A DNA stretch of 55,201 bases from IMG/VR virus record IMGVR_UViG_3300022200_000056, positions 1-55,201 of that record; one strand, written 5' to 3'. Both the position numbers and the translations under genes were made by a program. Below the pieces are notes generated by a model that saw only the letters and a list, made by a program, of their open reading frames with translations, was not told the origin of the DNA and made no database searches. The stretch is from a virus. Lineage: Duplodnaviria; Caudoviricetes. Shown in pieces: positions 12,356 through 45,022 of the stretch; positions within the stretch are counted from its first letter, which is position 1; each line of letters begins with the position of its first letter.

Positions 12356-15300
12356 ATGGCAGTTGTATCTACCAAGAGTCCATTCACGGGGTTCGAGTAT
12401 AAATTTAAGATTGCTGGTGATCAGCCCACGCAACAAGAGCGTGAGGTAATTGCACAGTATCTTATCGCCACAGAAAAGCCATTACAGCAAGCGCCAGAAG
12501 ATCAGGAACTCATTGAGACAGAATCTCAAGGTTTCTTTTCTGGTGTTGGCTCTGGCGTATTTGGCAGTCTCGCACAGATACCTGCTGGTATCGTTGGCCT
12601 AGGCGAATCTGTTTTAGGTTATAACCCCGGCGAAACAACGGTAGGTCAGATCGCTGGCGGTGCATCAGATTACCTTCAGTCAGGTGTTGACTATGTGTTT
12701 GGCGAGGCTACTGACGATCCATACTCTAAGGCTGGTCAAACTTTAGGTTCCGTTGCCTCTTTCTTCATCCCCGGCTTAGGCGTAGCAAAAGGCGCGTCTC
12801 TTGCTGGCGCAGGTGCAAAGACAGCGACCGCTTTGGCGACAGCAACTGCGGCAACACAAGGTGTCGCTCTTGGATCTAAGGAGCAGATGGATAGAATCCA
12901 ACTTGCCCTTGAGAACGGAGAGCAACTATCTGACGACCAGATGCAATGGGCCACAATACTTGGTGGCGGCGTTGGGTCTACAGAAGCGCTTCCTATAGGT
13001 CGCTTGTTCGGTCAAATAGGAAAGATGTTGAGAAAGGTTCCTAAGGAAGAAAAGCAAACAGCAACATCAATTATTGCAAGACGGTTAAAGAACGCTGGCA
13101 CACAGGGACTTATAGAAGGCGGGCAAGAAGTTGGCGCCGCTATAATGCAAGACCTTGTTGAGCAAAATATATACAACCCAGATCTTGAAATTACAGCAAG
13201 CGCATATCAAGATGATGCTATTTATGGTGGCGGTGCTGGCGCCACATTACAGTTCTTGATTGATACTGTAGGCGGTCGCCGTGTGCGCAAACAGTTTGAC
13301 AAGGATCGTCAACTAGAGAACGACCTCAGAGAAGAGTCAAACGAAAAGCAATTTGATTTTGGCAATGCTCAAGCATCTCTTGGCTTTGAGCAGTACGATG
13401 ACGAGGGCAACCCAGTACAGCAACTGTTGCCACAGCCAGAAAAGGTAGAAAATCTAGAGGTTAATGTTGTTGATGAAACAACAACTGGCCCTACTGAAAA
13501 GCAGTTAGAAGATTCGGCGCGCCTGAAAAGACTGGCGTTAGACCCTACAGCGGAGAGAGAACTTCAAGCGCAAAAGATGCGCGAGATAACCGTTGGTGGT
13601 TTTGCTGGTGTAGATCTAAAGAACTTACCAGATGATGAGCAGTTGGCTGTTCGTCAGTACCGCACGCGCACGGGTATCGCCGATGTTGATTCAGAGATTG
13701 GAATCCAAGAACTTCAAGACATTGTTACTGACGCTTATGGCGCGGAGCGTGGCATTGCCGCGTACAATCGTGAGGCTACCAAACAAAAGCCAGCGTTCTT
13801 TGAGCCTAAGTTAACAGAGGCAGAGCAGGCACAGCAAAAAGAAGCAAGCATTGTTAACCAAAAAGTTATAGAGAACTTTGAGGACATGAAGCAGTCGCTC
13901 AAAGACGGTAGCATATTGGCTAAAGATGGTGTGATTAGCATACCAAAAATTCAGCGCAAGTATAAAATGAAAGTCAACGAAGCGCGCGCGGCAGTTGATG
14001 CCCTTGCTAAGAAGGGTCACGCTACACCTATATCACCTACTCAGCACAAAGCTGTTCTGCCTGAAGGTAAAGAGGAGCCTGTACAGTCTGATAAGCACAT
14101 CAAGTTAAGAGAGTTTGAATCTCAGTTAAATGCTCTGAGAGTGCAGGCCGCAGATGAACGCCGCAAACTGCAAGAACTGAAAGAGCGTGGCGCCACCAAC
14201 ACACAAGAACAAATGGAGATCGAGAACCAACAGCGCGTTGCTGACGAGACCAGCGCTAGAGTTGAGGCCATCTCTGAAAGAGTAAACACATTCCAAGCAT
14301 TGGCTAATCAGTCACAGCCAGACAACGCAGACAGAGTGAACGCTGTTCAGATCACGTCCAATGAAGCGCGTCAGGCCATGATGGAATCACTGAGCGCAAA
14401 GCCTACAGACGAGTACAAGCGCACTATCAACACAGTGGCTAACAACCTCCGCAAGTATTTGTTCAAAGACCTTGGTTTGTCTGATGTTGATCTAGTAACC
14501 CAGAATGTATTAGAGCCAGAGCGCATCAAAAGTGGTCATGTCGTAGAGGCTTATGAAACTTCAGGCGATGCTGGTCGCCGCATGATTACGATTGCCATGG
14601 AGGTCTATAATCCAAACCTGACAGAGGCACAACTTACACAGCGCCTCAAGGGTGTAGTAAACCACGAGGTGATCCACTCGCTTCGGTCGCTGGGTGTTAT
14701 CACTGACGCTGAGTTTAGTATGCTGGTTAAAGCGGCAACCAATCGCAAGTATGTGCGGTCAAAGGCTGGCAAAAACCTAGAGCGAGACTACACGTTCATG
14801 GAACGCGCTTCAATTATGAACCGTGGTCAGAGTCAAGAGTACATAGCAGAAGAAGCGGTGGCTGAAATGTTCCGCGCTTACGCTGATGGTCGCATCAAGG
14901 TCGGCGGAAAGCCGAAGGGTATCTTCCAAAAGATTGTACGCTTCTTTAAGTCTGTGTTCAGAGCCCACAGCGATGCAGGGTTTAACAGCGCCGCAGAATT
15001 GTTTGACGGCATCCTCGCTGGCAAGGTCGGCAAGAGACAGCGCAACCTACAAAAGGCCGCTCAAGCACCTGCTGGCTCTCGCTATTCCACTGCTGGCGTT
15101 CGCGCTGGGTACATGGTGCCACTTAAAGGTGACATTGAGCGCATTGGTCAAAACTTTAAGGATGTAACCAAGCGTGTACCTGAACTTGAAAAAGCGGCTA
15201 ATAGATTGGCTGATGGTGAGATCACATACGAAGAGTATGACAACATCGTCAATGAATTTAAGCCTATCATGCCGTATCAAACTGTCCCCGCTCCAGAAAC

Positions 15301-18300
15301 AATGGAAGACATGAGGCGTGCTTTGTCGGCTACTGCCCCAAAGAAACTGGAAAAGTTAGGCAAGGCATCTAACATTGAGGTTGGCACGCCAATTAGTTTA
15401 AGACTTGATATCCCAGCCTACAGGTATCAGGGAGTTTGGGTGCCCACCATTCATGACTCCAACAACAGAGTAATAGCGCATGAAGCGACAGCAGTAATAC
15501 AAAATGTGTCTTTCTCAGCGAGTGAAAGAACTGGCTTGCGGATTGCACAAGGTGGAGAGAAAGGCCCATACGCCACCATTAAAGGATCGTTCGTTGGGTC
15601 TAATCCTGACGCAGACTTTGCTCTGGCACAGCAACTTTTGCTTGACCCATCTGTTGTTCAGGTTGGATTTGATCCCACACGCCACGCATACTTCTATGAC
15701 AGGGTGACAACTCAGCCAGTTATTGGCGCTGATTTAGTCGTTCAGGTTGGCCCACTTGTCTTGGCAAAGAACCCACAGTTTGGTCGCAAGCCTGACTTCA
15801 AGTATTCAGTTGCTCGACTGCCTAACACGCCATCTAATCTACTTGGCCCGATTGATGTGGTTCATGATGTCAAGGATCGCTACCTTAAATCGGTTGGCAT
15901 GCCGATGCGGAGACAGGCTGAGTATGTACAAGTCAATGAAGATCTTGCGCGGCGTATTGCTGGGGCCTTCCAAGAGGCAGAGGACTCTCCTCTAGATCCA
16001 GATGTGCGCGCCGCATACAAGGCTATGGCTGATGAGACCAAAGCGCAATGGCAGTTTATTAAAGACACTGGTATCAACATTGAGTTTATCAAGCAAGGTC
16101 AGGACAACCCATACCCGAACGGATCGCGTGATGTGTTGCTTGATATCCGTGACAACAATCATATGTGGGTATTCCCAACTGAAGATGGATTTGGTGTAGA
16201 GGAAATCACAGATGAGCAAAGGGTTCTGAATCCATTGCTCGACAAGGTTGGCGAAAGAATTGATGGTCTTGACGTGACGGTCAATGACTTATTCCGTATT
16301 GTCCACGACTACTTTGGGCATGGGCTTGAGGGCGCGACCTTCACTGCCCGTGGCGAAGAGAACGCATGGCAAGCGCACGTTCGCATGTACTCTCCGCTTG
16401 CCGCAAGGGCTATGACAACAGAGACCCGCGGTCAAAACTCTTGGGTTAACTACGGTCCATATGGTGATCAGAACCGTGCCAACCCGGGCGAAACAGTTTA
16501 TGCTGATCAGAAACTTACGCTACTTCCTGACTTCGTTGTGAACGAGGGCGTGGCGCCAGACTTGGAGATTGAAGATGGAAGAATCGTTGAAGAAACAAAT
16601 GGACCAAACGGTGGAAGCCGAGTTGGCAGGTCAGACCTTGGTCGAGTCGGAAGAACTGGAGCAGGACAAGCTGGCGATGCAGGCAAGATACGCGCGCGCT
16701 CAGTCGCTCCTGTCCCGAGCGTCAACGAAGACGGCAAAGTCAGACTAACTCATTACTCAAGCGTAGAAGATATTGATACGGTAGACCCAGAACGTCATGG
16801 GTCTAACGTAATGATGCGTGGTGACGAGCGTGAGCGCCGTGTTGGCTTCTCATCCATATACCCACCTCGCAGTTACTATGGCTTGAATGTCGGGGAAGAT
16901 GGAGGGTACTCCAAGTCCAAAGACTCTTGGAACATTGGGGACTCTATGTACATTACAGAGGTTCCTCTTGAATCTTTGTACAATTGGGACGCTGACCCTG
17001 AGAACTTCAAAGACAAAGCAATAGCAACGATACCAGATCATCTTACTGTGTCGAGAGATCGCTCCAATCATGCGACAACCATGACTGAGAAGTTGATTAA
17101 GGATAGTGGCTATCTTGGCTACTATGCGAACAGTCCTATGGGTCTTGCTGCCGCAGTATTTAATCCGTTAAAAGTTAGACCTAACTTATCTGAGGCGCCG
17201 AAGTATTCTATCGCAAGGCTCACCCCTGAGCAGTACAAACTTACCAGCCTTGGTAATGTTAACACTGAGGTAGGTGACCCAGAGAACAGATACTACATAC
17301 CACAAGCACCATACAACACGGTAATACTTGTTGACGCTGCACAGAATATGCAAAACGATAGGGGCAATGTTGTTCTTGACTGGTCTGATCCAAATAACTG
17401 GGAAGAGATTGCTACTCTGATTGCGGCAGAGGCTGAAGCCGCCTATTCAAGAGACGGAAATGCTATTGGCTGGTATGACAAAACACTTAGCCTTGCCAAA
17501 AGAATTACCAGTGTCCTATTCCCAGATGTTAAGCCGGGGACTGCTGATGAAGCCGCGTATCAATACGCTACCGCTGTAACATCTAACGGTATTGGCGTGA
17601 TACCAAACTGGCAGTACGCCGCAGAGCAATACAGGAACTGGAAAGAAACTGGCAAGTTTATTGAGAAGGGCTTTGGCAATCAGGGCGGCTCAATGGTTAA
17701 TGCCTTTGCCCTGTATAACACCATGAAAGACATGGGCTACACCGACTTAGAGATCAAGGAATTTCTAAGCCAGAAGATGACCGTGCGTGAACTGCGTCAG
17801 AACAATGTTGTACGAGCGCTTGGTATTACAGTGGACGCCAAAGAGTCTGTCGATACTGAAGTGTATGTCTCTTATATCATGGGCCCTAAAATTGGTCAGG
17901 GCTTTTATCAGAACTTAAATGGCAACTTTGAAACACTCACCATGGATCGTTGGTGGATGCGTATGTTTAACCGCATAACTGGCGAGCCATTCAAAAATGT
18001 CACAGAGAGAACCGTTGCGAACAACGAGGCTCGAGTATTAAAAGCCGTAAACAACATGCCACTCAGAGAGGCAGAGGCTGAACTTGTAAAGGCATCTCTT
18101 GATGTTATTAACGCCGACATAGTAACAGATGCAAACGTGCAAGAGTTTGCCATAGAGTTAAACAACCAGTTTCAGAACTACAGAGTACGCAGGATTAAGG
18201 CTGGCTATGGCGAGCCAAAGAAATCAGAGTTACTGTTGGCGGCTGATACTGCGGCTAAAAACTTCACGACTCAAATGCAAGAAGATCCTCGCACGGCAAA

Positions 18301-21300
18301 GCAACGTACAGCAATGCGCGCTATTACCAATCGTGCCAGAGAGATTCTAAAGGAAGATCTTGGTATTGATATCAACAACGCTGACTTCCAAGCGCTGATG
18401 TGGTATCCTGAAAAGAATCTTTTCTATTCATACGGTGTCAGGAAGGGCATTGGTGATGACAACGATTACATTGATGGCGCTATAGCGCTACTACAAAAGG
18501 AAGGCTATGATGTCGAAACAATCGCAGAAGCACTCCCCGAAGCAGACCGAGTCATCGTCCGTGATCGGGCAAATTCCACGTTCTCAACTGAGGAATCTGG
18601 TGATGTCACTCCAATCACAGATGGACAAGAAGAAGGAAGCCCAAGAACTTCTGACCAAGAGCGAAAGCGAAGCATAGCGCTAGTACCAGAGCGCTCATAC
18701 AGTATGAGCAACTCTCGACTTGCCGAGCGAGTAGACCAGCAGACAGCCAAAATATCTTACAACAACGTATCAGGTTTGCTGTCCAAGGTTCTTGGTATAG
18801 CCACCTACAAGATCCCTAAGGCTCTTGGTATAGTCACTGACAAGGACAGAGCAGAGGCTTTGTCTGAAAGGTTCTTTACTAAGTATCAAGATGCACTGTT
18901 GCCAGTGGGTAAACTTTATGACGAGTTGAGCCGTGAGGGCGCCGACATTGTTGACGCCCACGATGCTTACCTACAGGAAGAACTAGCGCAAGGACGTGCT
19001 GGTTATCAGATTGAAAAGAACCAGCAGGAATTGTTTGAGCCTCTTGCTGAAAGCGTGAAGGCTTTGGACGCTACGGATACCAGCCTTTCATCGCTTGCCT
19101 CTGGCTCTAAATTTGTTAGAGATTATTTAGCAGAGGATCAGTCTCCAAAGATTGCACTTGCTGAAGCGTTTTTGTATGCACGGCACGCAAGAGAACGTAA
19201 CGCGTACATCTTAAATAAATACAAGCGCGGCGTTGGCTCTGGTATGTCAGATCAAGAAGCCGATTTTATTATGGATTGGGTGGCAAAGCAAGATCCAACA
19301 CTGCGCTCTCAACTGGACACTGTTGCATCATTTGCAGATGGCATCGTTCAAAGCACTAACAAGATACGCGAAGATGGAGACTTGATCCCAGACCCAGCGA
19401 CTGTACAGGCTGACCCAGAGGGCAAGTGGCAACCAACTAACTTCAGCAACTATGTACCACTGCGTGGAACAATGGAGCCTGACGAAGAGGCGTCTCAAGA
19501 TTACCGCAACTCATCGCGCCGTTCGCCCAACCTGTATGGTTCAAGGGGTAGACTTGAAGCGCGGATGCAAGGACGTGGTGATAGTTATGCCGTAAACATC
19601 TTGGCTAACTTGATGGCTCAGAATCAACAGTCCGTTCAGAAGGCAGAGCGCAACAAGGTTGGTAAGGCTTTCTATGAACTGATCACAAACAGGGACATTG
19701 ACACATCCAACTATGGTGAGGTCATCGACAAATATGATGACTCCATTCGTGACAACATCTTGACTGTTAAAATAAACGGTGAAGAAAAGCATATCGAAAT
19801 CTTTGATGACCGTATCGCACGCGCCCTGAAGGGTGCAATGACGCCAACAAAATCTTCTAGCCTTGTTAGGTTTATGGGAAAAATTAATCGCGTCCTGTCA
19901 AACCTAAACACATCTTGGAACCCAGAGTTTGTTATATCTAACTTTGCCCGTGACCTTGAGACAGCAGCAATTAACATCAATCAGTATGAAGAAAAAGAGA
20001 TAACAAGAGAGATTGTTAAGAACGCATTGCCAGCGGTGAAGGGCATCGCTGGGTTGCTTCGTGGCAATAAGGATAGTGAGTGGGCTAGAATCTACGAAGA
20101 GTTTGTGAAGGCTGGCGGTAAGAACGCGACCAACCAAATGTCAGATCTACAAGATCAGGTTGAGCAACTCAAAGGTATTGTTGATGGCATAGGTAGAGAC
20201 TCTAAGTCTGGCAAACTTGGCTTGGTAAAGAATGGCTTCAGCAAACTTGGCAAATTCCTTGAAGACTACAACACTGCGGTTGAGAACGGCGTTCGCATAG
20301 CAACCTTTGATGCGTTACGCAAGCGAGGATACAGTGAACAAAGAGCAGCACAAGCGGCAAGGAATGTGACTGTTAACTTTGCCAAGGGTGGCGAAGACAA
20401 GGTTCTCATGAACAGCCTGTTCCTATTCTATAACGCATCACTTCAAGGTTCGATGGCACTAGCCAATGCGGCTGTTCGCTCGCCAAAGGTAAGAGCATTA
20501 TGGGGTAGCATGTTTATTTATGGCATGCTTCAAGACCAGTTGATGGGTGCGCTGTCTGACGATGAGGATGGAGACGGTAAGAACGACTATGACGAGTTAA
20601 GTGACTACACTCTTGAGCATAATCTTATTCTACCTAACCCATTTGCAGGAGTTATTGGCGGCAAGTTTATTAAGATCCCACTTGCCTACGGACTTAACAT
20701 GGCGACCAACACAGGGCGCTCAATCAGCCGTGTTATGCGTGGTGAGTACACCGTTGGTCAGGCGAGCGAAACAATTACAGGCACTATGCTTGAACTCCTA
20801 AACCCTCTTGGCTCTGGAATTGAAGACTGGGAAAACATTGCGGCTCCCACTGTAGTAGACCCATTCGTTTCGCTAATGGTAAACAAGGACTACAAGGGCG
20901 ACCCAATCTACAAGTTTAGCTCTCCGTTTGGCTTGCAAAAGCCAGACAGCCAGATGTACTGGAACAACACCAGCCCTGTGGCTCGCACTATCGCACAGCA
21001 AATAAATTCTTTGACCGGAGGAACAGAGGTAACTCCGGGGTATATAGATTTTTCTCCAGATGTTCTTGAGTTTTGGTTTGACTACGTTACTGGCGCCGCT
21101 GGTGCGTTTGTAAGAAGGTCAGTTGAAACTCCGGTCAATGTAACCAAGGCTCTGGCTGGCGACTTTGACGGTGATCTTTCTCGAACACTGCCGATTGTAC
21201 GCAAACTAACAATCTCCCCATCATCATATGAAGATGTGGGAGTTTACATTGAGAACAGGGATAAGATCCTGAGCGCGCGTAAAGAACTTGAGACAGCAAT

Positions 21301-21547
21301 GGCATACAGAGACCCAGCAAACATACGCCGTGTCCGTGCTGAGTATGAAACATTGCTTAGTATATATGGCAATGTCAAGCGTATCGACAACGCTCGGAAC
21401 AGATTGATCAGACAGAAGAACACAATAAGAAACAATCCCATTATGCCAGAGGCAAGGAAGACTGAACTGATTGCTAAGATCAATGAAAGGATTAGTCAGT
21501 TGGTTAAAGAGGCCAACAAGACTATGTATGACGCTGGAATAAGGTAA
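12356..21547 (+). CDS. Large polyvalent (injected, DarB-like) protein with zincin metallopeptidase, ART-like, HhH-like and C-terminal LPD38-like domains
   Basis: 3063 aa; HEVIH..EEAVAEMF; FRIVHDYFGH; VRLTHYS..SYYG; TMDRWWMR..FQALMWY; KIPLAYG..NKDYKGDPIY. Confidence 0.75.
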   Translation: MAVVSTKSPFTGFEYKFKIAGDQPTQQEREVIAQYLIATEKPLQQAPEDQELIETESQGFFSGVGSGVFGSLAQIPAGIVGLGESVLGYNPGETTVGQIAGGASDYLQSGVDYVFGEATDDPYSKAGQTLGSVASFFIPGLGVAKGASLAGAGAKTATALATATAATQGVALGSKEQMDRIQLALENGEQLSDDQMQWATILGGGVGSTEALPIGRLFGQIGKMLRKVPKEEKQTATSIIARRLKNAGTQGLIEGGQEVGAAIMQDLVEQNIYNPDLEITASAYQDDAIYGGGAGATLQFLIDTVGGRRVRKQFDKDRQLENDLREESNEKQFDFGNAQASLGFEQYDDEGNPVQQLLPQPEKVENLEVNVVDETTTGPTEKQLEDSARLKRLALDPTAERELQAQKMREITVGGFAGVDLKNLPDDEQLAVRQYRTRTGIADVDSEIGIQELQDIVTDAYGAERGIAAYNREATKQKPAFFEPKLTEAEQAQQKEASIVNQKVIENFEDMKQSLKDGSILAKDGVISIPKIQRKYKMKVNEARAAVDALAKKGHATPISPTQHKAVLPEGKEEPVQSDKHIKLREFESQLNALRVQAADERRKLQELKERGATNTQEQMEIENQQRVADETSARVEAISERVNTFQALANQSQPDNADRVNAVQITSNEARQAMMESLSAKPTDEYKRTINTVANNLRKYLFKDLGLSDVDLVTQNVLEPERIKSGHVVEAYETSGDAGRRMITIAMEVYNPNLTEAQLTQRLKGVVNHEVIHSLRSLGVITDAEFSMLVKAATNRKYVRSKAGKNLERDYTFMERASIMNRGQSQEYIAEEAVAEMFRAYADGRIKVGGKPKGIFQKIVRFFKSVFRAHSDAGFNSAAELFDGILAGKVGKRQRNLQKAAQAPAGSRYSTAGVRAGYMVPLKGDIERIGQNFKDVTKRVPELEKAANRLADGEITYEEYDNIVNEFKPIMPYQTVPAPETMEDMRRALSATAPKKLEKLGKASNIEVGTPISLRLDIPAYRYQGVWVPTIHDSNNRVIAHEATAVIQNVSFSASERTGLRIAQGGEKGPYATIKGSFVGSNPDADFALAQQLLLDPSVVQVGFDPTRHAYFYDRVTTQPVIGADLVVQVGPLVLAKNPQFGRKPDFKYSVARLPNTPSNLLGPIDVVHDVKDRYLKSVGMPMRRQAEYVQVNEDLARRIAGAFQEAEDSPLDPDVRAAYKAMADETKAQWQFIKDTGINIEFIKQGQDNPYPNGSRDVLLDIRDNNHMWVFPTEDGFGVEEITDEQRVLNPLLDKVGERIDGLDVTVNDLFRIVHDYFGHGLEGATFTARGEENAWQAHVRMYSPLAARAMTTETRGQNSWVNYGPYGDQNRANPGETVYADQKLTLLPDFVVNEGVAPDLEIEDGRIVEETNGPNGGSRVGRSDLGRVGRTGAGQAGDAGKIRARSVAPVPSVNEDGKVRLTHYSSVEDIDTVDPERHGSNVMMRGDERERRVGFSSIYPPRSYYGLNVGEDGGYSKSKDSWNIGDSMYITEVPLESLYNWDADPENFKDKAIATIPDHLTVSRDRSNHATTMTEKLIKDSGYLGYYANSPMGLAAAVFNPLKVRPNLSEAPKYSIARLTPEQYKLTSLGNVNTEVGDPENRYYIPQAPYNTVILVDAAQNMQNDRGNVVLDWSDPNNWEEIATLIAAEAEAAYSRDGNAIGWYDKTLSLAKRITSVLFPDVKPGTADEAAYQYATAVTSNGIGVIPNWQYAAEQYRNWKETGKFIEKGFGNQGGSMVNAFALYNTMKDMGYTDLEIKEFLSQKMTVRELRQNNVVRALGITVDAKESVDTEVYVSYIMGPKIGQGFYQNLNGNFETLTMDRWWMRMFNRITGEPFKNVTERTVANNEARVLKAVNNMPLREAEAELVKASLDVINADIVTDANVQEFAIELNNQFQNYRVRRIKAGYGEPKKSELLLAADTAAKNFTTQMQEDPRTAKQRTAMRAITNRAREILKEDLGIDINNADFQALMWYPEKNLFYSYGVRKGIGDDNDYIDGAIALLQKEGYDVETIAEALPEADRVIVRDRANSTFSTEESGDVTPITDGQEEGSPRTSDQERKRSIALVPERSYSMSNSRLAERVDQQTAKISYNNVSGLLSKVLGIATYKIPKALGIVTDKDRAEALSERFFTKYQDALLPVGKLYDELSREGADIVDAHDAYLQEELAQGRAGYQIEKNQQELFEPLAESVKALDATDTSLSSLASGSKFVRDYLAEDQSPKIALAEAFLYARHARERNAYILNKYKRGVGSGMSDQEADFIMDWVAKQDPTLRSQLDTVASFADGIVQSTNKIREDGDLIPDPATVQADPEGKWQPTNFSNYVPLRGTMEPDEEASQDYRNSSRRSPNLYGSRGRLEARMQGRGDSYAVNILANLMAQNQQSVQKAERNKVGKAFYELITNRDIDTSNYGEVIDKYDDSIRDNILTVKINGEEKHIEIFDDRIARALKGAMTPTKSSSLVRFMGKINRVLSNLNTSWNPEFVISNFARDLETAAININQYEEKEITREIVKNALPAVKGIAGLLRGNKDSEWARIYEEFVKAGGKNATNQMSDLQDQVEQLKGIVDGIGRDSKSGKLGLVKNGFSKLGKFLEDYNTAVENGVRIATFDALRKRGYSEQRAAQAARNVTVNFAKGGEDKVLMNSLFLFYNASLQGSMALANAAVRSPKVRALWGSMFIYGMLQDQLMGALSDDEDGDGKNDYDELSDYTLEHNLILPNPFAGVIGGKFIKIPLAYGLNMATNTGRSISRVMRGEYTVGQASETITGTMLELLNPLGSGIEDWENIAAPTVVDPFVSLMVNKDYKGDPIYKFSSPFGLQKPDSQMYWNNTSPVARTIAQQINSLTGGTEVTPGYIDFSPDVLEFWFDYVTGAAGAFVRRSVETPVNVTKALAGDFDGDLSRTLPIVRKLTISPSSYEDVGVYIENRDKILSARKELETAMAYRDPANIRRVRAEYETLLSIYGNVKRIDNARNRLIRQKNTIRNNPIMPEARKTELIAKINERISQLVKEANKTMYDAGIR

Positions 21548-33353: not shown

Positions 33354-33418
33354 CGAGATGCCACGACACCCCCGAAGGGGTGTTTCGACAGTTTCTCATG
33401 CTGTCATCGTCAGGTAGC
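33354..33418 (-). ncRNA. Hammerhead ribozyme, type I
   Basis: GCUAC-CUGACGA-U-GACAG(CAUGAGAAA)CUGUC-GAAA-CACCCC(UUCG)GGGGUG-UC^GUGGC; loop II UGAGA can pair with downstream UCUCG. Confidence 0.9.
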
Positions 33419-33419
33419 G

Positions 33420-34085
33420 TTATGCGGCATCAAGTGCGCCCAGCACCTTGTCCACAACTTCATTTTCAGATGCGGCATCAGCCATAGCCTTTGCCGCCGC
33501 ATCATCTGATGCAAGCCGTGCGGCCTTCAACTCGCGGCACGCATCATCGAACTCAGCCCAATCCATCGCATCGTATTTGGATGGCTTGAATGAACCAGTT
33601 ACGGTTTCTTTGCCGAACAACTTTTCTGCCAGTTTAAACATCTCAGATTTGCCAGCGTCACCATCGACAGCATCCATGAGTTTTTTCTCGCTATCAATTT
33701 CATGATCATCAAACACTGCCCTGACCATTTCGGGCGTTACGTTGTCGCCGCCAATGCCCAACTTGTGGCGAGCCTTGACGCTGTTCTCTTTCAGTTTCTT
33801 GGCGGTGGCTGGCTTGATGTATGCACCCAACTCTTCGCTCAGTTGTTTAGACACTGTGGCAGGAAGGCGTTTGTTCTTGCCATTGCCAACCAACCCGACT
33901 GGCGAGATCGCCACGATCAGGCTGACGTACTGGTTAATCTTATGGGCATTCATCTGCTGGGTGTTCGCGTTGTTCTCCATGGTGCGTGCCTTGTTCTCGC
34001 CGCGCAAATTAGCAATGGATGCCTCAGCATTGGCAATGTCTGCCATGGTGTTGTCGAAATTTTGAGTGTTAAAAATGTCCTGCAT
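33420..34085 (-). CDS. Hypothetical early protein
   Basis: AGGAGA RBS; 221 aa, Ala/Asp-rich helical. Confidence 0.75.
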   Translation of the reverse strand: MQDIFNTQNFDNTMADIANAEASIANLRGENKARTMENNANTQQMNAHKINQYVSLIVAISPVGLVGNGKNKRLPATVSKQLSEELGAYIKPATAKKLKENSVKARHKLGIGGDNVTPEMVRAVFDDHEIDSEKKLMDAVDGDAGKSEMFKLAEKLFGKETVTGSFKPSKYDAMDWAEFDDACRELKAARLASDDAAAKAMADAASENEVVDKVLGALDAA

Positions 34086-34117
34086 AATAGTCTCCTGTGA
34101 ATTGCAGTTGGTTGGTG

Positions 34118-34285
34118 TTATTTCCAGATCACTTCAATTTGTGAAGTTTTCTCATCGGTCTTCCATTCGCCGATAGGCTTGCGTGACATGGTGCAGAACA
34201 CCTTGCCAGCGCGGTCACCTACGACCTTTTCGAAACGATCAATTTCATTAAGAAAATCGTTAAATGTTTTGAAGATCTCTTTCAT
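34118..34285 (-). CDS. Small hypothetical protein (55 aa, not in ORF track)
   Basis: MKEIFKTFNDFLNEIDRFEKVVGDRAGKVFCTMSRKPIGEWKTDEKTSQIEVIWK with GGAGA RBS. Confidence 0.65.
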   Translation of the reverse strand: MKEIFKTFNDFLNEIDRFEKVVGDRAGKVFCTMSRKPIGEWKTDEKTSQIEVIWK

Positions 34286-34287
34286 GG

Positions 34288-34491
34288 TTATTCTCCCTTG
34301 AACTCAAAACGCTGGTCAAAATATGCAGGGTTGTCAGAGCATGCGATAGCATCCTTAACCTGTTGGACATTCATCCATCCGCACATTGCCATCTCGAAGG
34401 CATCATCGAAGTTGATGAAACCAAGATTAGCCAAGGTCTTCAGTGCCTCGCGGCGGATAGGTGTGAGTTTAGCATCTGCAATTTTAGACAT
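34288..34491 (-). CDS. Small hypothetical protein, first gene of leftward operon
   Basis: AGGAGA RBS overlapping hammerhead stem III; 67 aa. Confidence 0.7.
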   Translation of the reverse strand: MSKIADAKLTPIRREALKTLANLGFINFDDAFEMAMCGWMNVQQVKDAIACSDNPAYFDQRFEFKGE

Positions 34492-34499
34492 CGTTGTCT

Positions 34500-34549
34500 C
34501 CTGTTTCGTGGTTACTCTTCAGCATGGCGTACCAATCGCCATGGACAGG
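34500..34549 (-). ncRNA. Hammerhead ribozyme, type III
   Basis: CCUG-UC^CAUGGCG(AUUGGUA)CGCCAUG-CUGAAGA-GU(AACC)AC-GAAA-CAGG; complete core and complementary loops. Confidence 0.88.
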
Positions 34550-34550
34550 G

Positions 34551-34783
34551 GGGCAAGTTACCCTGCCCCGAACCCAGCCGCAGGAACTCACGCCCCTGCC
34601 AGATTTACCGCCCCACAAGCGCGAGCGCATCACTGCGGTCACACCCGATCTGTATCTCGAACTGCCCCATCGCAAGCGCGACAGGTGGGCTGGGTGACAT
34701 CGCCTCACCACTCCGTGAGGTAGAAGATCTGGGGCTGGTTACCAGAATGCCGAAGGTTGCCAAATCAGGGGCTGTGAACCCCT
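34551..34783 (-). ncRNA. Large unclassified structured RNA (multi-junction, GNRA loops)
   Basis: About nine nested or adjacent helices, GUGA x2 and GUAA tetraloops, G-U pairs favour the minus strand, no credible ORF. Confidence 0.65.
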
Positions 34784-35103
34784 TTGTCATATAGCCGCAG
34801 ATGGTTGTCAACCCCCCCTAATGGCTTTTTTTGGTCATTAATGGATATGTGTGACATATATGCAACAGTTAAAGGTCGAAATCGTCACTGGCGGCTTCTG
34901 GAAGATAGCCGTGTGTGATTATAAGCCAGAATACCTAAAGGCGCTCAGTGAGGCTTAAAACGCCAGTAATCGGCATTATTGGTTATTCTTTGCCAGTGTT
35001 GTTTCGGGGACGTAAATGGTAAAGTTATATAGAACAATTGAACGGCGAGACCAAAACCACGCCCAAGCGCAAGCGCATACTGGCGGCACACAGGGAATAC
35101 ATA

Positions 35104-35574
35104 ATGGGTAGAGATAAAGACAAAGATAAGATCATTAAACTAGTACCAGCATCGGATGGCCTCACTAGCAAACAGGAAACCTTCGCCAAGTTGGTAAGTG
35201 AGGGGCAGACACTCACTGATGCCTATCGATCAGCGTACAGCGCAGAAAAGATGAAGGATAGTTCAGTATGGGTTGAAGCATGCAAGTTGAGGCAACACCC
35301 CAAGGTGTCCCAAAGGATAGAGGCGTTATCAGGTGAGATCACCGCACGTCAGGCATCTGAAGACGAACGGCTCAGGATATTTGTGACTGAACAGTTGAAG
35401 CATGAGGCTTTGGGTGCAGGATCAGACAGCGCAAGGGTTCAGGCACTGGTGGCATTGGGCAGATCGGTGGCAATGTTCAGTGACAAGGTTATCGAAGAGG
35501 ACAGCACACACCGCACAGCGTCTGAGATTGAGGCTGAGATCCAAGATCGCCTGTCGCGACTGCTTGGTTCCTGA
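35104..35574 (+). CDS. terS: Terminase small subunit
   Basis: LTSKQETFAKLV..TDAYRSAY..ACKLRQHPKVSQRI..ARVQALVALGR. Confidence 0.8.
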   Translation: MGRDKDKDKIIKLVPASDGLTSKQETFAKLVSEGQTLTDAYRSAYSAEKMKDSSVWVEACKLRQHPKVSQRIEALSGEITARQASEDERLRIFVTEQLKHEALGAGSDSARVQALVALGRSVAMFSDKVIEEDSTHRTASEIEAEIQDRLSRLLGS

Positions 35575-35688
35575 TCTGTCTGGGGGTGGACACAGCGCAT
35601 TCCGCACTGGCTTGACCCCCACCCCACCCCATCCCCCCTGTATGGCGCGGCGCATACAACACACTATACACTGTGAAATGCACAACCA

Positions 35689-44524: not shown

Positions 44525-44593
44525 GTGTATAATGTATAAGAACCTTGACAGCCGCATGGTGTGGCTGACATTAGCCAAGACAAGGAGTTCCTC

Positions 44594-45022
44594 ATGGCTA
44601 CCACAACTTTTTCCGGTCCTATTAAAGCAGGATCGATCCGCGAAGGCGCATCTGCGAATGTCGGCTTCGTAAAAATGGCTCAAACTGCATCTTGGACTCA
44701 GTCTACAACCGCAGCTGATACAGGTATTACAATCCCTGCTAATAGCCAAATCACTGAAATTTCAATCTACATCACAACGGCTCCCGCTACTTCCAACATT
44801 AGTATGGGTACAAGCTCAACTTCTACTGAGCTGTTTACTGCTCTTGCCTCTGGCACAGCTGCAAATGTAATCCTGCATGGCTCTGACGGCACTATTACAG
44901 ATGCAGATACTTGGGCTGATATTGGTTCCTCGGATGTTAGTATCTTTATTGACTTTTCCGCTGGTTCAACGGGTGCTGGCTATGTGACTGTAGAATACAT
45001 TCAAAACATTAATAACGCCTAA
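44594..45022 (+). CDS. Virion structural protein
   Basis: AAGGAG RBS; MATTTFSGPIKAG start; Thr/Ser-rich. Confidence 0.7.
   Translation: MATTTFSGPIKAGSIREGASANVGFVKMAQTASWTQSTTAADTGITIPANSQITEISIYITTAPATSNISMGTSSTSTELFTALASGTAANVILHGSDGTITDADTWADIGSSDVSIFIDFSAGSTGAGYVTVEYIQNINNA

What the first reader, a model, noticed from the sequence alone, without database searches (positions are those of the whole stretch)
34484..34549. Type III hammerhead whose stem III sequesters the Shine-Dalgarno of the next gene
Seen: CCUG-UC^CAUGGCG(AUUGGUA)CGCCAUG-CUGAAGA-GU(AACC)AC-GAAA-CAGG-AGA-caacg-AUG. The catalytic core is complete, and loop I (GGU) can pair with loop II (ACC), as in natural fast hammerheads. 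The 3' strand of stem III (CAGG) is the start of the RBS CAGGAGA of ORF 34491-34288. Cleavage puts the blocking CCUG strand on the other product. Inference: translation of the first early gene is switched on by self-cleavage, a natural counterpart of engineered ribozyme-RBS switches.
Basis: partly seen in the sequence, partly recalled or inferred. Interest (0 to 1): 0.85.

Follow-up and report, generated by a model that had tools for sequence, protein, structure and literature searches.

The report
Phage hammerhead ribozyme abutting a ribosome site
A very probably genuine self-cutting hammerhead RNA sits just before the first gene of a leftward operon in an uncultured freshwater phage and uses half of that gene's ribosome-binding site as one strand of its closing helix; the ribozyme kind is known, and the overlap looks like a side effect of transcript trimming more than a true switch.

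Summary
The motif is in the sequence exactly as described (minus strand 34549-34500, cut predicted between 34544 and 34543). It belongs to a conserved phage subfamily: 7-bp stem I, 7-nt loop I, 2-bp stem II, 4-nt loop II. Pattern scans gave 83 distinct members. All stems and a 3-bp loop I-loop II pseudoknot covary. Rfam's hammerhead models miss it.

Short stem II and such pseudoknots are already described for phage hammerheads (Perreault 2011, PMC3088659, passages read).

A second, type I hammerhead lies 1.18 kb downstream (33419-33354). It is conserved in two syntenic relatives. The pair brackets a three-gene block, the published "clustered hammerhead" layout.

The stem III/Shine-Dalgarno overlap is real but partial, 3 of 6 SD bases. 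It is kept in 4 of 4 syntenic relatives, yet in only 14 of 64 scorable family members. Folding models give a small gain in SD access after cleavage, 0.10 to 0.26.

My reading is constitutive 5'-end processing, with brief SD masking as a by-product. Cleavage itself is untested.

This scan has noted the same layout on other DNA: 90 notes in at least 79 genomes.

The parts
34500..34549 (-). Type III hammerhead ribozyme: stem III open, stems I and II capped by loops. Predicted cut between 34544 and 34543.
   Evidence: Sequence. Single descriptor hit in the window. 0 comparable hits in 400 shuffles. Own covariance model R1 scores 69.2 bits and gives the only hit in the window. Covariation across 24 relatives.
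34523..34543 (-). Stem I (7 bp) plus 7-nt loop I. After cleavage it becomes a flush 5'-terminal hairpin on the 3' product.
   Evidence: All 7 pairs show compensatory changes and 100% of cells are paired in A2. Members were pre-filtered for >=6 of 7 stem I pairs.
34516..34522 (-). Core CUGAAGA (C3-A9).
   Evidence: Invariance in my alignments is imposed by the search patterns. In the core-independent scan, 4 of 5 distinct elements carry CUGANGA and GAAA.
34508..34515 (-). Stem II (G10.1-C11.1 and U10.2-A11.2) with 4-nt loop II. Loop II bases 34512-34510 pair with loop I bases 34531-34533 to form a pseudoknot.
   Evidence: Pseudoknot helix is 97.2% paired in A2, and 2 of its 3 pairs covary. All 3 pairs form in 80 of 83 members. 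Second stem II pair: UA 74, AU 2, mismatch 7 of 83.
34504..34507 (-). Core GAAA (G12, A13, A14, A15.1).
34497..34502 (-). Shine-Dalgarno AGGAGA of the 67-aa ORF. Its first 3 bases are in the 3' strand of stem III.
   Evidence: 5 of 6 match to AGGAGG and a 3-nt overlap. There are 5 nt between AGGAGA and the AUG.
34288..34491 (-). Downstream ORF of 67 aa with no known family.
   Evidence: Only a near-identical copy was found in viral contigs (L001).
34550..34800 (-). GC-rich leader that cleavage would remove. Its 5' end is not mapped.
   Evidence: GC is 0.62-0.63 against about 0.45 in the flanks. Fold z-score is -1.73. It is poorly conserved in relatives, while the hammerhead block is conserved.
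33354..33419 (-). Second hammerhead, type I, with one extra U after A9 and a pseudoknot between loop II and the 3' tail. Predicted cut between 33365 and 33364, which is 43 nt before the AUG of the MoxR-like ATPase gene.
   Evidence: Stem II and the pseudoknot change compensatorily in L019 and L052. Rfam gives only a weak Hammerhead_II hit (12.4 bits, E 7.6).

Best explanation
This is a genuine self-cleaving type III hammerhead of a compact, phage-borne subfamily.

As the leftward transcript is made, the ribozyme folds once its last strand (CAGG, the start of the SD) emerges. It then cuts between 34544 and 34543. This removes the roughly 250-nt GC-rich leader. The mRNA that remains starts with a 5'-OH and a flush 7-bp hairpin (stem I), 52 nt before the AUG of a 67-aa ORF.

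A second hammerhead (type I, 33419-33354) cuts 1,179 nt further on. The first three genes are thereby separated from the MoxR-ATPase/VWA genes.

The main role is constitutive transcript processing: it defines mRNA ends and so uncouples stability and translation from the upstream RNA. Because the ribozyme abuts the ribosome-binding site, half of the SD is paired in the uncut fold and is freed when the 6-nt 5' strand leaves. That makes translation follow cleavage, but as a by-product, not a regulated switch.

Shown: the motif, the conserved fold, the position before start codons, and the second ribozyme.

Inferred: cleavage itself, the fate of the products, and any effect on stability or translation.
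For: 1. Complete canonical core and correct topology.

2. Conserved fold. In 24 distinct relatives 97.1% of cells are paired against 68.5% in shuffles. 14 of 17 pairs have compensatory changes. 0 of 500 shuffles reach the observed score, and slid controls give 32-52% paired.

3. The population is bimodal. In the metagenome scan 73 of 84 matches have 7 of 7 stem I pairs and 8 have <=5. In 185,579 genome representatives 1 of 6 matches is a member and 5 look like chance.

4. The pseudoknot was not used for selection, yet all 3 pairs form in 80 of 83 members.

5. Among four syntenic relatives the hammerhead is the conserved block between a diverged leader and a diverged ORF.

6. Position. A start codon with an ORF lies within +4 to +60 nt of GAAA in 75 of 83 members. 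The median is 19 nt (IQR 15-24) and the ORF median is 78 aa.

7. Clustering. There is a second hammerhead in the window and in L019 and L052. Same-strand tandem copies about 300 nt apart occur in L017, L035, L044, L059 and L157. [quoted passage not shown]

8. A 2-bp stem II plus a pseudoknot is a documented active design.

9. A flush 5' hairpin and a 5'-OH are expected to slow 5'-end-dependent decay. This rests on recalled knowledge of RNase E, not on any call.
Against: - No cleavage data exist. The two RNA runs that hold parts of this phage have no contig over 34271-35007, so nothing can be said either way.
- Rfam hammerhead models give no hit at gathering score or at E<=10. They also miss 19 of 19 member loci searched.
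- Core invariance in my alignments is imposed by the patterns. Among pattern-independent copies several keep the scaffold but not the core. L363/L374 has AUGAUUA and GGCG in place of CUGANGA and GAAA. Extra copies in L017, L157 and L035 have altered or displaced cores. The scaffold may therefore also work without cutting.
[quoted passage not shown] Here the difference is 5 bp.
- No promoter was found, so the transcript's 5' end is unknown.
- The nearest cultured relatives by large terminase (HTVC027P and 023Pt_psg01) lack this ribozyme.
Confidence: 0.6

Rival explanations
1. Cleavage-gated translation. Stem III blocks the SD in the uncut RNA. Self-cleavage releases the CCUG strand and switches on translation of the 67-aa ORF. 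SD unmasking is the selected function.
For: - SD bases 34502-34500 are in stem III.
- The overlap is kept in 4 of 4 syntenic relatives. In L019 the helix extends over the whole SD (8 bp).
- The overlap recurs in other lineages (L049, L183, L208, L213, L221, L222, L254 and others): 14 of 64 scorable members.
- Lower-scoring tandem copies in L035 and L044 also place the SD in the 3' strand.
- Modelled pre-cleavage SD accessibility is lower in overlap members (0.25) than in the others (0.51).
- Engineered ribozyme switches that release an RBS work in E. coli (review PMC12192606, passage read).
Against: - 47 of 64 scorable members have the SD entirely outside stem III, so this cannot be the family's general function.
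- The modelled gain on cleavage is small and inconsistent: window 0.10 to 0.26, L052 0.25 to 0.30, L183 0.34 to 0.34, L174 0.27 to 0.04.
- Only 3 of 6 SD bases are paired, in a 5-bp helix.
- A fast ribozyme with no sensor gives a delay, not a switch.
- The overlap follows from geometry whenever the ribozyme ends <=16 nt from the start codon.
Confidence: 0.25
2. The ribozyme serves the upstream RNA. It makes a precise 3' end (2',3'-cyclic phosphate) on the roughly 230-250-nt GC-rich structured leader, which is itself the functional product.
For: - The leader is a GC-rich island (0.62-0.63) with many predicted hairpins.
- Every syntenic relative has a leader between the AT-rich divergent gap and the ribozyme.
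Against: - Fold z-score is only -1.73, and 9 of 200 shuffles fold as well.
- Leader sequence and length are poorly conserved among relatives, and L019 is about 110 nt shorter.
- No Rfam family matches beyond chance-level hits.
- Across the family the ribozyme tracks the downstream start codon (median 19 nt), not a common upstream element.
Confidence: 0.08
3. The element is a structural scaffold that acts without cutting, for example as a translational operator, a coupling element or a protective hairpin. The canonical core in this copy would be inherited and not used.
For: - L363/L374 keep stem I, loop I, stem II and loop II and sit before an SD, but lack CUGANGA and GAAA.
- Extra copies in L017 and L157 keep CUGAUGA but have an SD-bearing insert where GAAA should follow stem II.
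- The same genome carries Mu-gpT-DE, a non-ribozyme helix whose 3' strand runs into an SD.
Against: - In the window every core position is canonical.
- 4 of 5 distinct elements found without reference to the core have it intact.
- N7 is the only core position that the hammerhead consensus leaves free. It is also the one that varies among the four syntenic relatives: A, C, C, U.
Confidence: 0.05
4. It is a chance motif, or part of a protein-coding region (the 75-aa GTG ORF 34711-34484 that spans it).
For: - One reading frame is open across the motif.
- Per-window chance is not negligible over a very large scan: 3 loose hits in 400 shuffles.
Against: - Covariation is of the RNA type and the member population is bimodal.
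- Only 8 of 24 members have any spanning ORF >=30 aa, with differing lengths and offsets.
- The leader has indels that are not multiples of three among relatives.
Confidence: 0.02

Closest known systems
Clustered hammerhead ribozymes flanking genes in phages and prophages (Perreault et al. 2011, PMC3088659; passages read)
   Same: - Canonical core.
- Stem II of only 2 bp.
- Base-paired tertiary contact (pseudoknot) between the stem I and stem II regions.
- Several ribozymes on one strand bracket single genes or short gene blocks.
- Proposed role in cutting long phage transcripts into gene-length mRNAs, with the function unproven.
   Different: - Neither the term 'Shine-Dalgarno' nor the terms 'translation' and 'ribosome binding' occur in that paper's main text (0 hits each).
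[quoted passage not shown] Here the difference is 5 bp (7 against 2).
- I could not see their Dataset S1 because supplements are closed. I therefore cannot say whether this subfamily is already in their alignments.
Rfam hammerhead families (clan CL00010, e.g. Hammerhead_II RF02276, named; Hammerhead_3 RF00008, number recalled)
   Same: Same core and same three-way junction.
   Different: - No Rfam hammerhead model reaches its gathering score on the window or on 19 member loci.
- None appears at E<=10 on 34300-34800.
Engineered hammerhead devices in bacterial 5' UTRs that free an RBS on cleavage (review PMC12192606, one passage read; the original aptazyme papers and the RiboJ insulator are recalled, not read)
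   Same: - A ribozyme sits in the 5' UTR and the RBS is paired in the uncut fold.
- Cleavage detaches the masking strand.
- As in RiboJ (recalled), cleavage also removes the upstream RNA context and leaves a hairpin at the new 5' end.
   Different: - It is natural and has no aptamer or other visible input.
- Only half of the SD is masked.
- The masking helix is stem III. In the designs I recall it is an extended stem I.
Mu-gpT-DE RNA (Rfam RF03012), present in this same genome at 44543-44596 (+)
   Same: An outer helix runs into the SD of the next gene, and an inner hairpin lies within it, in a Mu-like head module. It is also present in relative L052.
   Different: It has no hammerhead core, so no cleavage is expected. 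It lies in the late (head) region and is a different family.

Membership tests
Hammerhead ribozyme, type III | Core C3-U4-G5-A6-N7-G8-A9 between stems I and II, and G12-A13-A14 between stems II and III. | tested here: met
   CUGAAGA at 34522-34516 and GAAA at 34507-34504. Descriptor hit.
Hammerhead ribozyme, type III | A15.1-U16.1 pair and a non-G nucleotide (H17) 5' of the scissile bond. | tested here: met
   A34504 pairs with U34545, and C34544 is H17. The pair is UA in 24 of 24 members (U16.1 was required by my filter). H17 is C in 71 and U in 12 of 83 members.
Hammerhead ribozyme, type III | Three helices with type III connectivity: stems I and II capped, stem III open. Support from covariation. 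| tested here: met
   Stem I has 7 of 7 pairs with compensatory change, and stem III has 4 of 5. Overall 97.1% of cells are paired against 68.5% in shuffles. Caveat: members were pre-filtered for stem I >=6 of 7 pairs and stem III >=3 bp.
Hammerhead ribozyme, type III | G10.1-C11.1 closing pair of stem II. | tested here: met
   GC in 24 of 24 members. This includes 9 members from a scan that left stem II free.
Hammerhead ribozyme, type III | Tertiary contact between the stem I and stem II regions, needed for fast cleavage at physiological Mg2+. | tested here: met
   A 3-bp loop I-loop II pseudoknot. All 3 pairs form in 80 of 83 members, and two of the pairs covary. It was not part of the selection filter.
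Hammerhead ribozyme, type III | Match to a curated Rfam hammerhead covariance model. | tested here: not met
   No hit at gathering score or at E<=10. I take this as a limit of the models for the 2-bp stem II design, not as evidence against the fold.
Hammerhead ribozyme, type III | Site-specific self-cleavage. | not testable with these tools
   RNA contigs of runs X15 and X20 do not cover the site.
Cleavage-gated translation device (RBS-masking ribozyme) | The SD is base-paired within a ribozyme helix before cleavage, and the masking strand ends up on the other product. | tested here: met
   3 of 6 SD bases are in the 5-bp stem III. The type III topology puts CCUGUC on the 5' product.
Cleavage-gated translation device (RBS-masking ribozyme) | The masking is conserved in homologues. 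| tested here: inconclusive
   Kept in 4 of 4 syntenic relatives, but with no covariation because the bases are identical. Present in 14 of 64 scorable family members and absent in 47.
Cleavage-gated translation device (RBS-masking ribozyme) | Cleavage raises ribosome access or translation. | tested here: inconclusive
   Thermodynamic model only: window 0.10 to 0.26, and overlap group mean 0.25 to 0.36 with two members not improving.
Clustered phage hammerheads (Perreault 2011) | Two or more hammerheads on one strand bracket a gene or a short block of genes. | tested here: met
   Type III at 34549-34500 and type I at 33419-33354 bracket three ORFs (67, 55 and 221 aa). The same pairing occurs in L019 and L052.

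The most novel reading that the evidence does not exclude
Ribozyme folding and ribosome binding compete for the same bases. Stem III can form only if the SD is not yet held by a 30S subunit, and the SD is fully free only after the cut. The hammerhead would then be a natural kinetic gate that ties translation of the first leftward gene to removal of the leader.

Together with the type I hammerhead 1.18 kb downstream, it would release a three-gene RNA with 5'-OH and 2',3'-cyclic phosphate ends. Those ends have the chemistry that RtcB-type ligases join, so the RNA could be religated or circularised.

The core-less relatives that still pair the SD would be the non-cleaving version of the same translational gate.
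Probability: 0.12. Interest if true: 0.8.

Novelty: new member of a known kind. Interest (0 to 1): 0.42.

Why it matters
What phage and bacterial hammerheads do is still open. The 2019 review PMC6765202 states this (passage read).

This subfamily is compact and numerous in aquatic phage contigs, and Rfam does not detect it. It sits a median of 19 nt before the start codons of small genes. That gives a concrete, testable job: defining mRNA 5' ends at the ribosome-binding site.

About a fifth of members go further and pair the SD itself. The natural spread of full overlap, no overlap and core-less copies is a ready-made set for testing whether cleavage, masking or the leftover hairpin matters.

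In practical terms, the model R1 or the simple descriptor would recover ribozymes that current annotation misses.

Tried and rejected
RNA evidence. Run search and laying of X15, X20 (RNA) and X13, X16 (DNA). All are contigs at low depth. The RNA contigs do not cover 34271-35007, so this says nothing about transcription or cleavage. The DNA contigs over the ribozyme carry no differences, so they add no covariation.

Phage collection. Blastn of 33400-35600 found no match. Blastn of the 62-nt element gave only chance-level partial hits at E 2-5.

Downstream protein. There are no Pfam or PHROG families for the 67-, 55- or 221-aa ORFs. The search for related loci found only a near-identical fragment (L001), which is uninformative.

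Promoter. The scan found no sigma-70-like site upstream on the minus strand. A TTGACA near 34810 has too short a spacer to any -10-like hexamer (my reading).

Core-independent scan 1. Only 3 of 87 distinct matches had the scaffold, so it was underpowered. It was replaced by the more specific scan.

Coding rival. Rejected.

Similarity of outline to Mu-gpT-DE. Considered and rejected as membership, because that family has no hammerhead core and R1 does not hit 44543-44596.

Not used: structure prediction, complex prediction and the large protein searches, because the question concerns an RNA.

Literature. Searches found no paper describing a natural hammerhead whose helix contains the SD. The library is partial, and supplements (for example Perreault Dataset S1) are closed.

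Full report
WHAT IS THERE

The window is a 55,201-base IMG/VR virus record, estimated 93% complete. By its large terminase it is nearest to Pelagibacter phages HTVC027P (56% aa identity) and HTVC023P (52%). Near-identical DNA occurs in freshwater, aquatic and estuary metagenome runs.

On the minus strand, 34549-34500 reads as a complete type III hammerhead:
- Stem III is 5 bp, counting A15.1-U16.1.
- U16.1 and C17 are at 34545 and 34544.
- Stem I is 7 bp with a 7-nt loop.
- The core CUGAAGA is followed by a 2-bp stem II (G-C, U-A) with a 4-nt loop, then GAAA.
- The 3' strand of stem III is CAGG, which runs into AGGAGA. After 5 nt comes the AUG of a 67-aa ORF (34491-34288).

IS IT MORE THAN CHANCE?

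- A descriptor for this topology finds one hit in the window.
- In 400 dinucleotide-preserving shuffles it finds 3 loose hits, and none with stems as long as observed.
- That alone would not survive a scan of a quarter of a million windows.
- Rfam does not help. There is no hammerhead hit at gathering score or at E<=10 on 34300-34800.

RELATIVES

Pattern scans:
- A scan fixing only the core, stem II and C15.2 returned 62 viral loci. About a third of them had the identical architecture with different stem sequences.
- A second scan left stem II and loop II free.
- The 24 distinct sequences align without gaps (A2).

Pair counts on A2:
- 97.1% of cells are paired, against 68.5% in shuffles (0 of 500 shuffles reach the observed value).
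- 14 of 17 pairs have changes on both sides.
- Slid controls give 32-52% paired.

The loop I/loop II pairing was not part of any filter. It forms in full in 80 of 83 members of the final set, and two of its three pairs covary.

The members form a separate population:
- In the metagenome scan 73 of 84 matches have a perfect stem I and 8 have five pairs or fewer.
- In 185,579 genome representatives only 1 of 6 matches is a member, from an Aliivibrio MAG. The rest look like chance.
- None of 19 member loci is recognised by Rfam.

Caveat: the invariance of CUGANGA and GAAA in these sets is imposed by the patterns.
- A scan that ignores the core found 5 distinct elements. Four have the canonical core. 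One (L363/L374) has the same scaffold but no core.
- Extra copies found by my model R1 include altered cores.

CONTEXT IN THE WINDOW

The ribozyme lies in the gap between the rightward packaging and head genes and a leftward operon.
- Rightward: a small terminase-like ORF at 35038-35574.
- Leftward: small ORFs of 67, 55 and 221 aa, then a MoxR-like AAA ATPase and a DUF2201 metallopeptidase/VWA protein.
- Upstream of the ribozyme is a GC-rich stretch of about 250 nt (GC 0.62-0.63) with no supported ORF.

Three contigs are syntenic relatives (L019/L060, L052, L174). In their alignment the hammerhead is the conserved block between a diverged leader and diverged ORFs.

At 33419-33354 there is a type I hammerhead with these features:
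- CUGACGA followed by one extra U.
- A 5-bp stem II.
- GAAA.
- A 7-bp stem III capped by UUCG.
- UC, then the predicted cut at 33365/33364.
- A pseudoknot between loop II and the 3' tail.

L019 and L052 carry it at the matching place, with compensatory changes in stem II and in the pseudoknot. Rfam gives only a weak Hammerhead_II hit there (12.4 bits, E 7.6).

The two ribozymes bracket a 1,179-nt, three-gene segment. Other members occur in same-strand arrays about 300 nt apart (L017, L035, L044, L059, L157).

THE SHINE-DALGARNO QUESTION

In the window 3 of the 6 SD bases are in stem III. The overlap is kept in all four syntenic relatives, and in L019 the helix covers the whole SD. The bases are identical among them, so there is no covariation to prove selection.

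Over the pooled family of 83 distinct elements:
- 75 have a start codon with an ORF within +4 to +60 nt of GAAA. The median distance is 19 nt (IQR 15-24) and the ORF median is 78 aa.
- Of the 64 with an SD matching at least 4 of 6, the SD overlaps stem III by >=3 nt in 14, by 1-2 nt in 3, and not at all in 47.

The conserved feature is therefore position just ahead of the ribosome-binding site, not SD pairing.

Partition-function folding of 21 members gives these mean SD unpaired probabilities:

| Group | Before cleavage | After cleavage |
|---|---|---|
| Window | 0.10 | 0.26 |
| Six overlap members (mean) | 0.25 | 0.36 |
| Fifteen non-overlap members (mean) | 0.51 | 0.54 |

Two of the overlap members do not improve. 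A small hairpin over the AUG (AGACA/UGUCU) is predicted both before and after cleavage. These models ignore tertiary structure and kinetics and are weak evidence.

MECHANISM

I rate the element a real self-cleaving ribozyme at about 0.9.

The most economical function is the one suggested for clustered phage hammerheads: co-transcriptional processing of a long transcript into defined mRNAs (Perreault 2011, passages; review PMC6765202, passage).

For a type III hammerhead the 3' product begins with stem I. The new mRNA therefore has a 5'-OH and a fully paired 5' end, followed closely by the ribosome-binding site. From recalled knowledge of 5'-end-dependent decay in bacteria, this should stabilise it and insulate it from the leader.

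The SD overlap means the uncut, folded RNA is partly masked and the cut RNA is not. With no sensor and a probably fast ribozyme, that gives a short obligatory order of events, not a switch.

I give 0.08 to 3'-end formation of a functional leader RNA, 0.05 to a cleavage-independent scaffold role, and 0.02 to chance or coding.

WHAT IS KNOWN AND WHAT IS NEW

Already in Perreault 2011:
- 2-bp (even 1-bp) stem II.
- Pseudoknots in all three hammerhead types.
- Clusters that flank phage genes.

That paper's main text has no occurrence of 'Shine-Dalgarno', 'translation' or 'ribosome binding'. It associates type III pseudoknots with a 2-bp stem length difference, where this subfamily has 5.

My five literature searches found RBS-masking hammerheads only as engineered devices (for example the passage in PMC12192606). 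Supplements were closed, so I cannot tell whether this subfamily is in the published alignments.

Within this scan the same layout has been noted before on other DNA: 90 notes in at least 79 genomes. I did not count those notes as evidence.

I file it as a new member of a known kind, with moderate interest.

Noticed in passing
window 33354-33419 (-): Type I hammerhead just after the stop of ORF 34085-33420 and 43 nt before the MoxR-like ATPase AUG. It has one extra U after A9 and a pseudoknot between loop II and the 3' tail. It is conserved with compensatory changes in L019 and L052. After the cut, the new 5' end could form a small GUGGC/GCCAU hairpin.
   Followed up: partly
window 44543-44596 (+); also L052 285-337 (-): Mu-gpT-DE RNA (Rfam RF03012; 67.8 and 56.5 bits) after the Mu gpT-like capsid gene. 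Its outer helix also runs into the SD of the next ORF, so the same phage uses an SD-in-helix design without a ribozyme core.
   Followed up: no
window 34550-34800 (-): GC-rich leader (0.62-0.63 against about 0.45 around it) with several predicted hairpins. Fold z-score is only -1.73, and it is poorly conserved in syntenic relatives.
   Followed up: partly
L035 4801-4862 (+): A tandem family copy (57.7 bits) whose core reads U at position 3 and A at position 8 in place of C3 and G8. From recall, C3 and G8 pair in the active hammerhead structure, so this could be a natural compensatory core variant. Its stem III 3' strand is CGGAGGA, which is the SD.
   Followed up: no
L363 52-90 (+) and L374 1523-1561 (-): The same stem I/loop I/stem II/loop II scaffold as the family, in front of an SD, but with AUGAUUA and GGCG where CUGANGA and GAAA should be. 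This is a core-less relative that probably cannot cut.
   Followed up: no
L017 3185-3246 and 3519-3582 (-); L157 1041-1102 and 1328-1384 (-): Lower-scoring tandem copies (34-45 bits) that keep CUGAUGA and the pseudoknot loops. They have an SD-bearing insert (GGGAG or CGGAG) directly after stem II where GAAA is expected.
   Followed up: no
window 34484-34503 (-): A small hairpin, AGACA/UGUCU, encloses the last SD bases and the UG of the AUG. It is predicted both before and after cleavage.
   Followed up: partly
window 12356-21547 (+): A single 3,063-aa ORF in the rightward gene block. It was not examined.
   Followed up: no
W01 (MN698241.1) and W02 (MW574966.1): The closest cultured or complete relatives by large terminase are Pelagibacter phage HTVC027P and phage 023Pt_psg01. 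Neither has a match to the hammerhead model R1 at E<=0.01, so the ribozyme is not a fixed feature of this phage group.
   Followed up: yes
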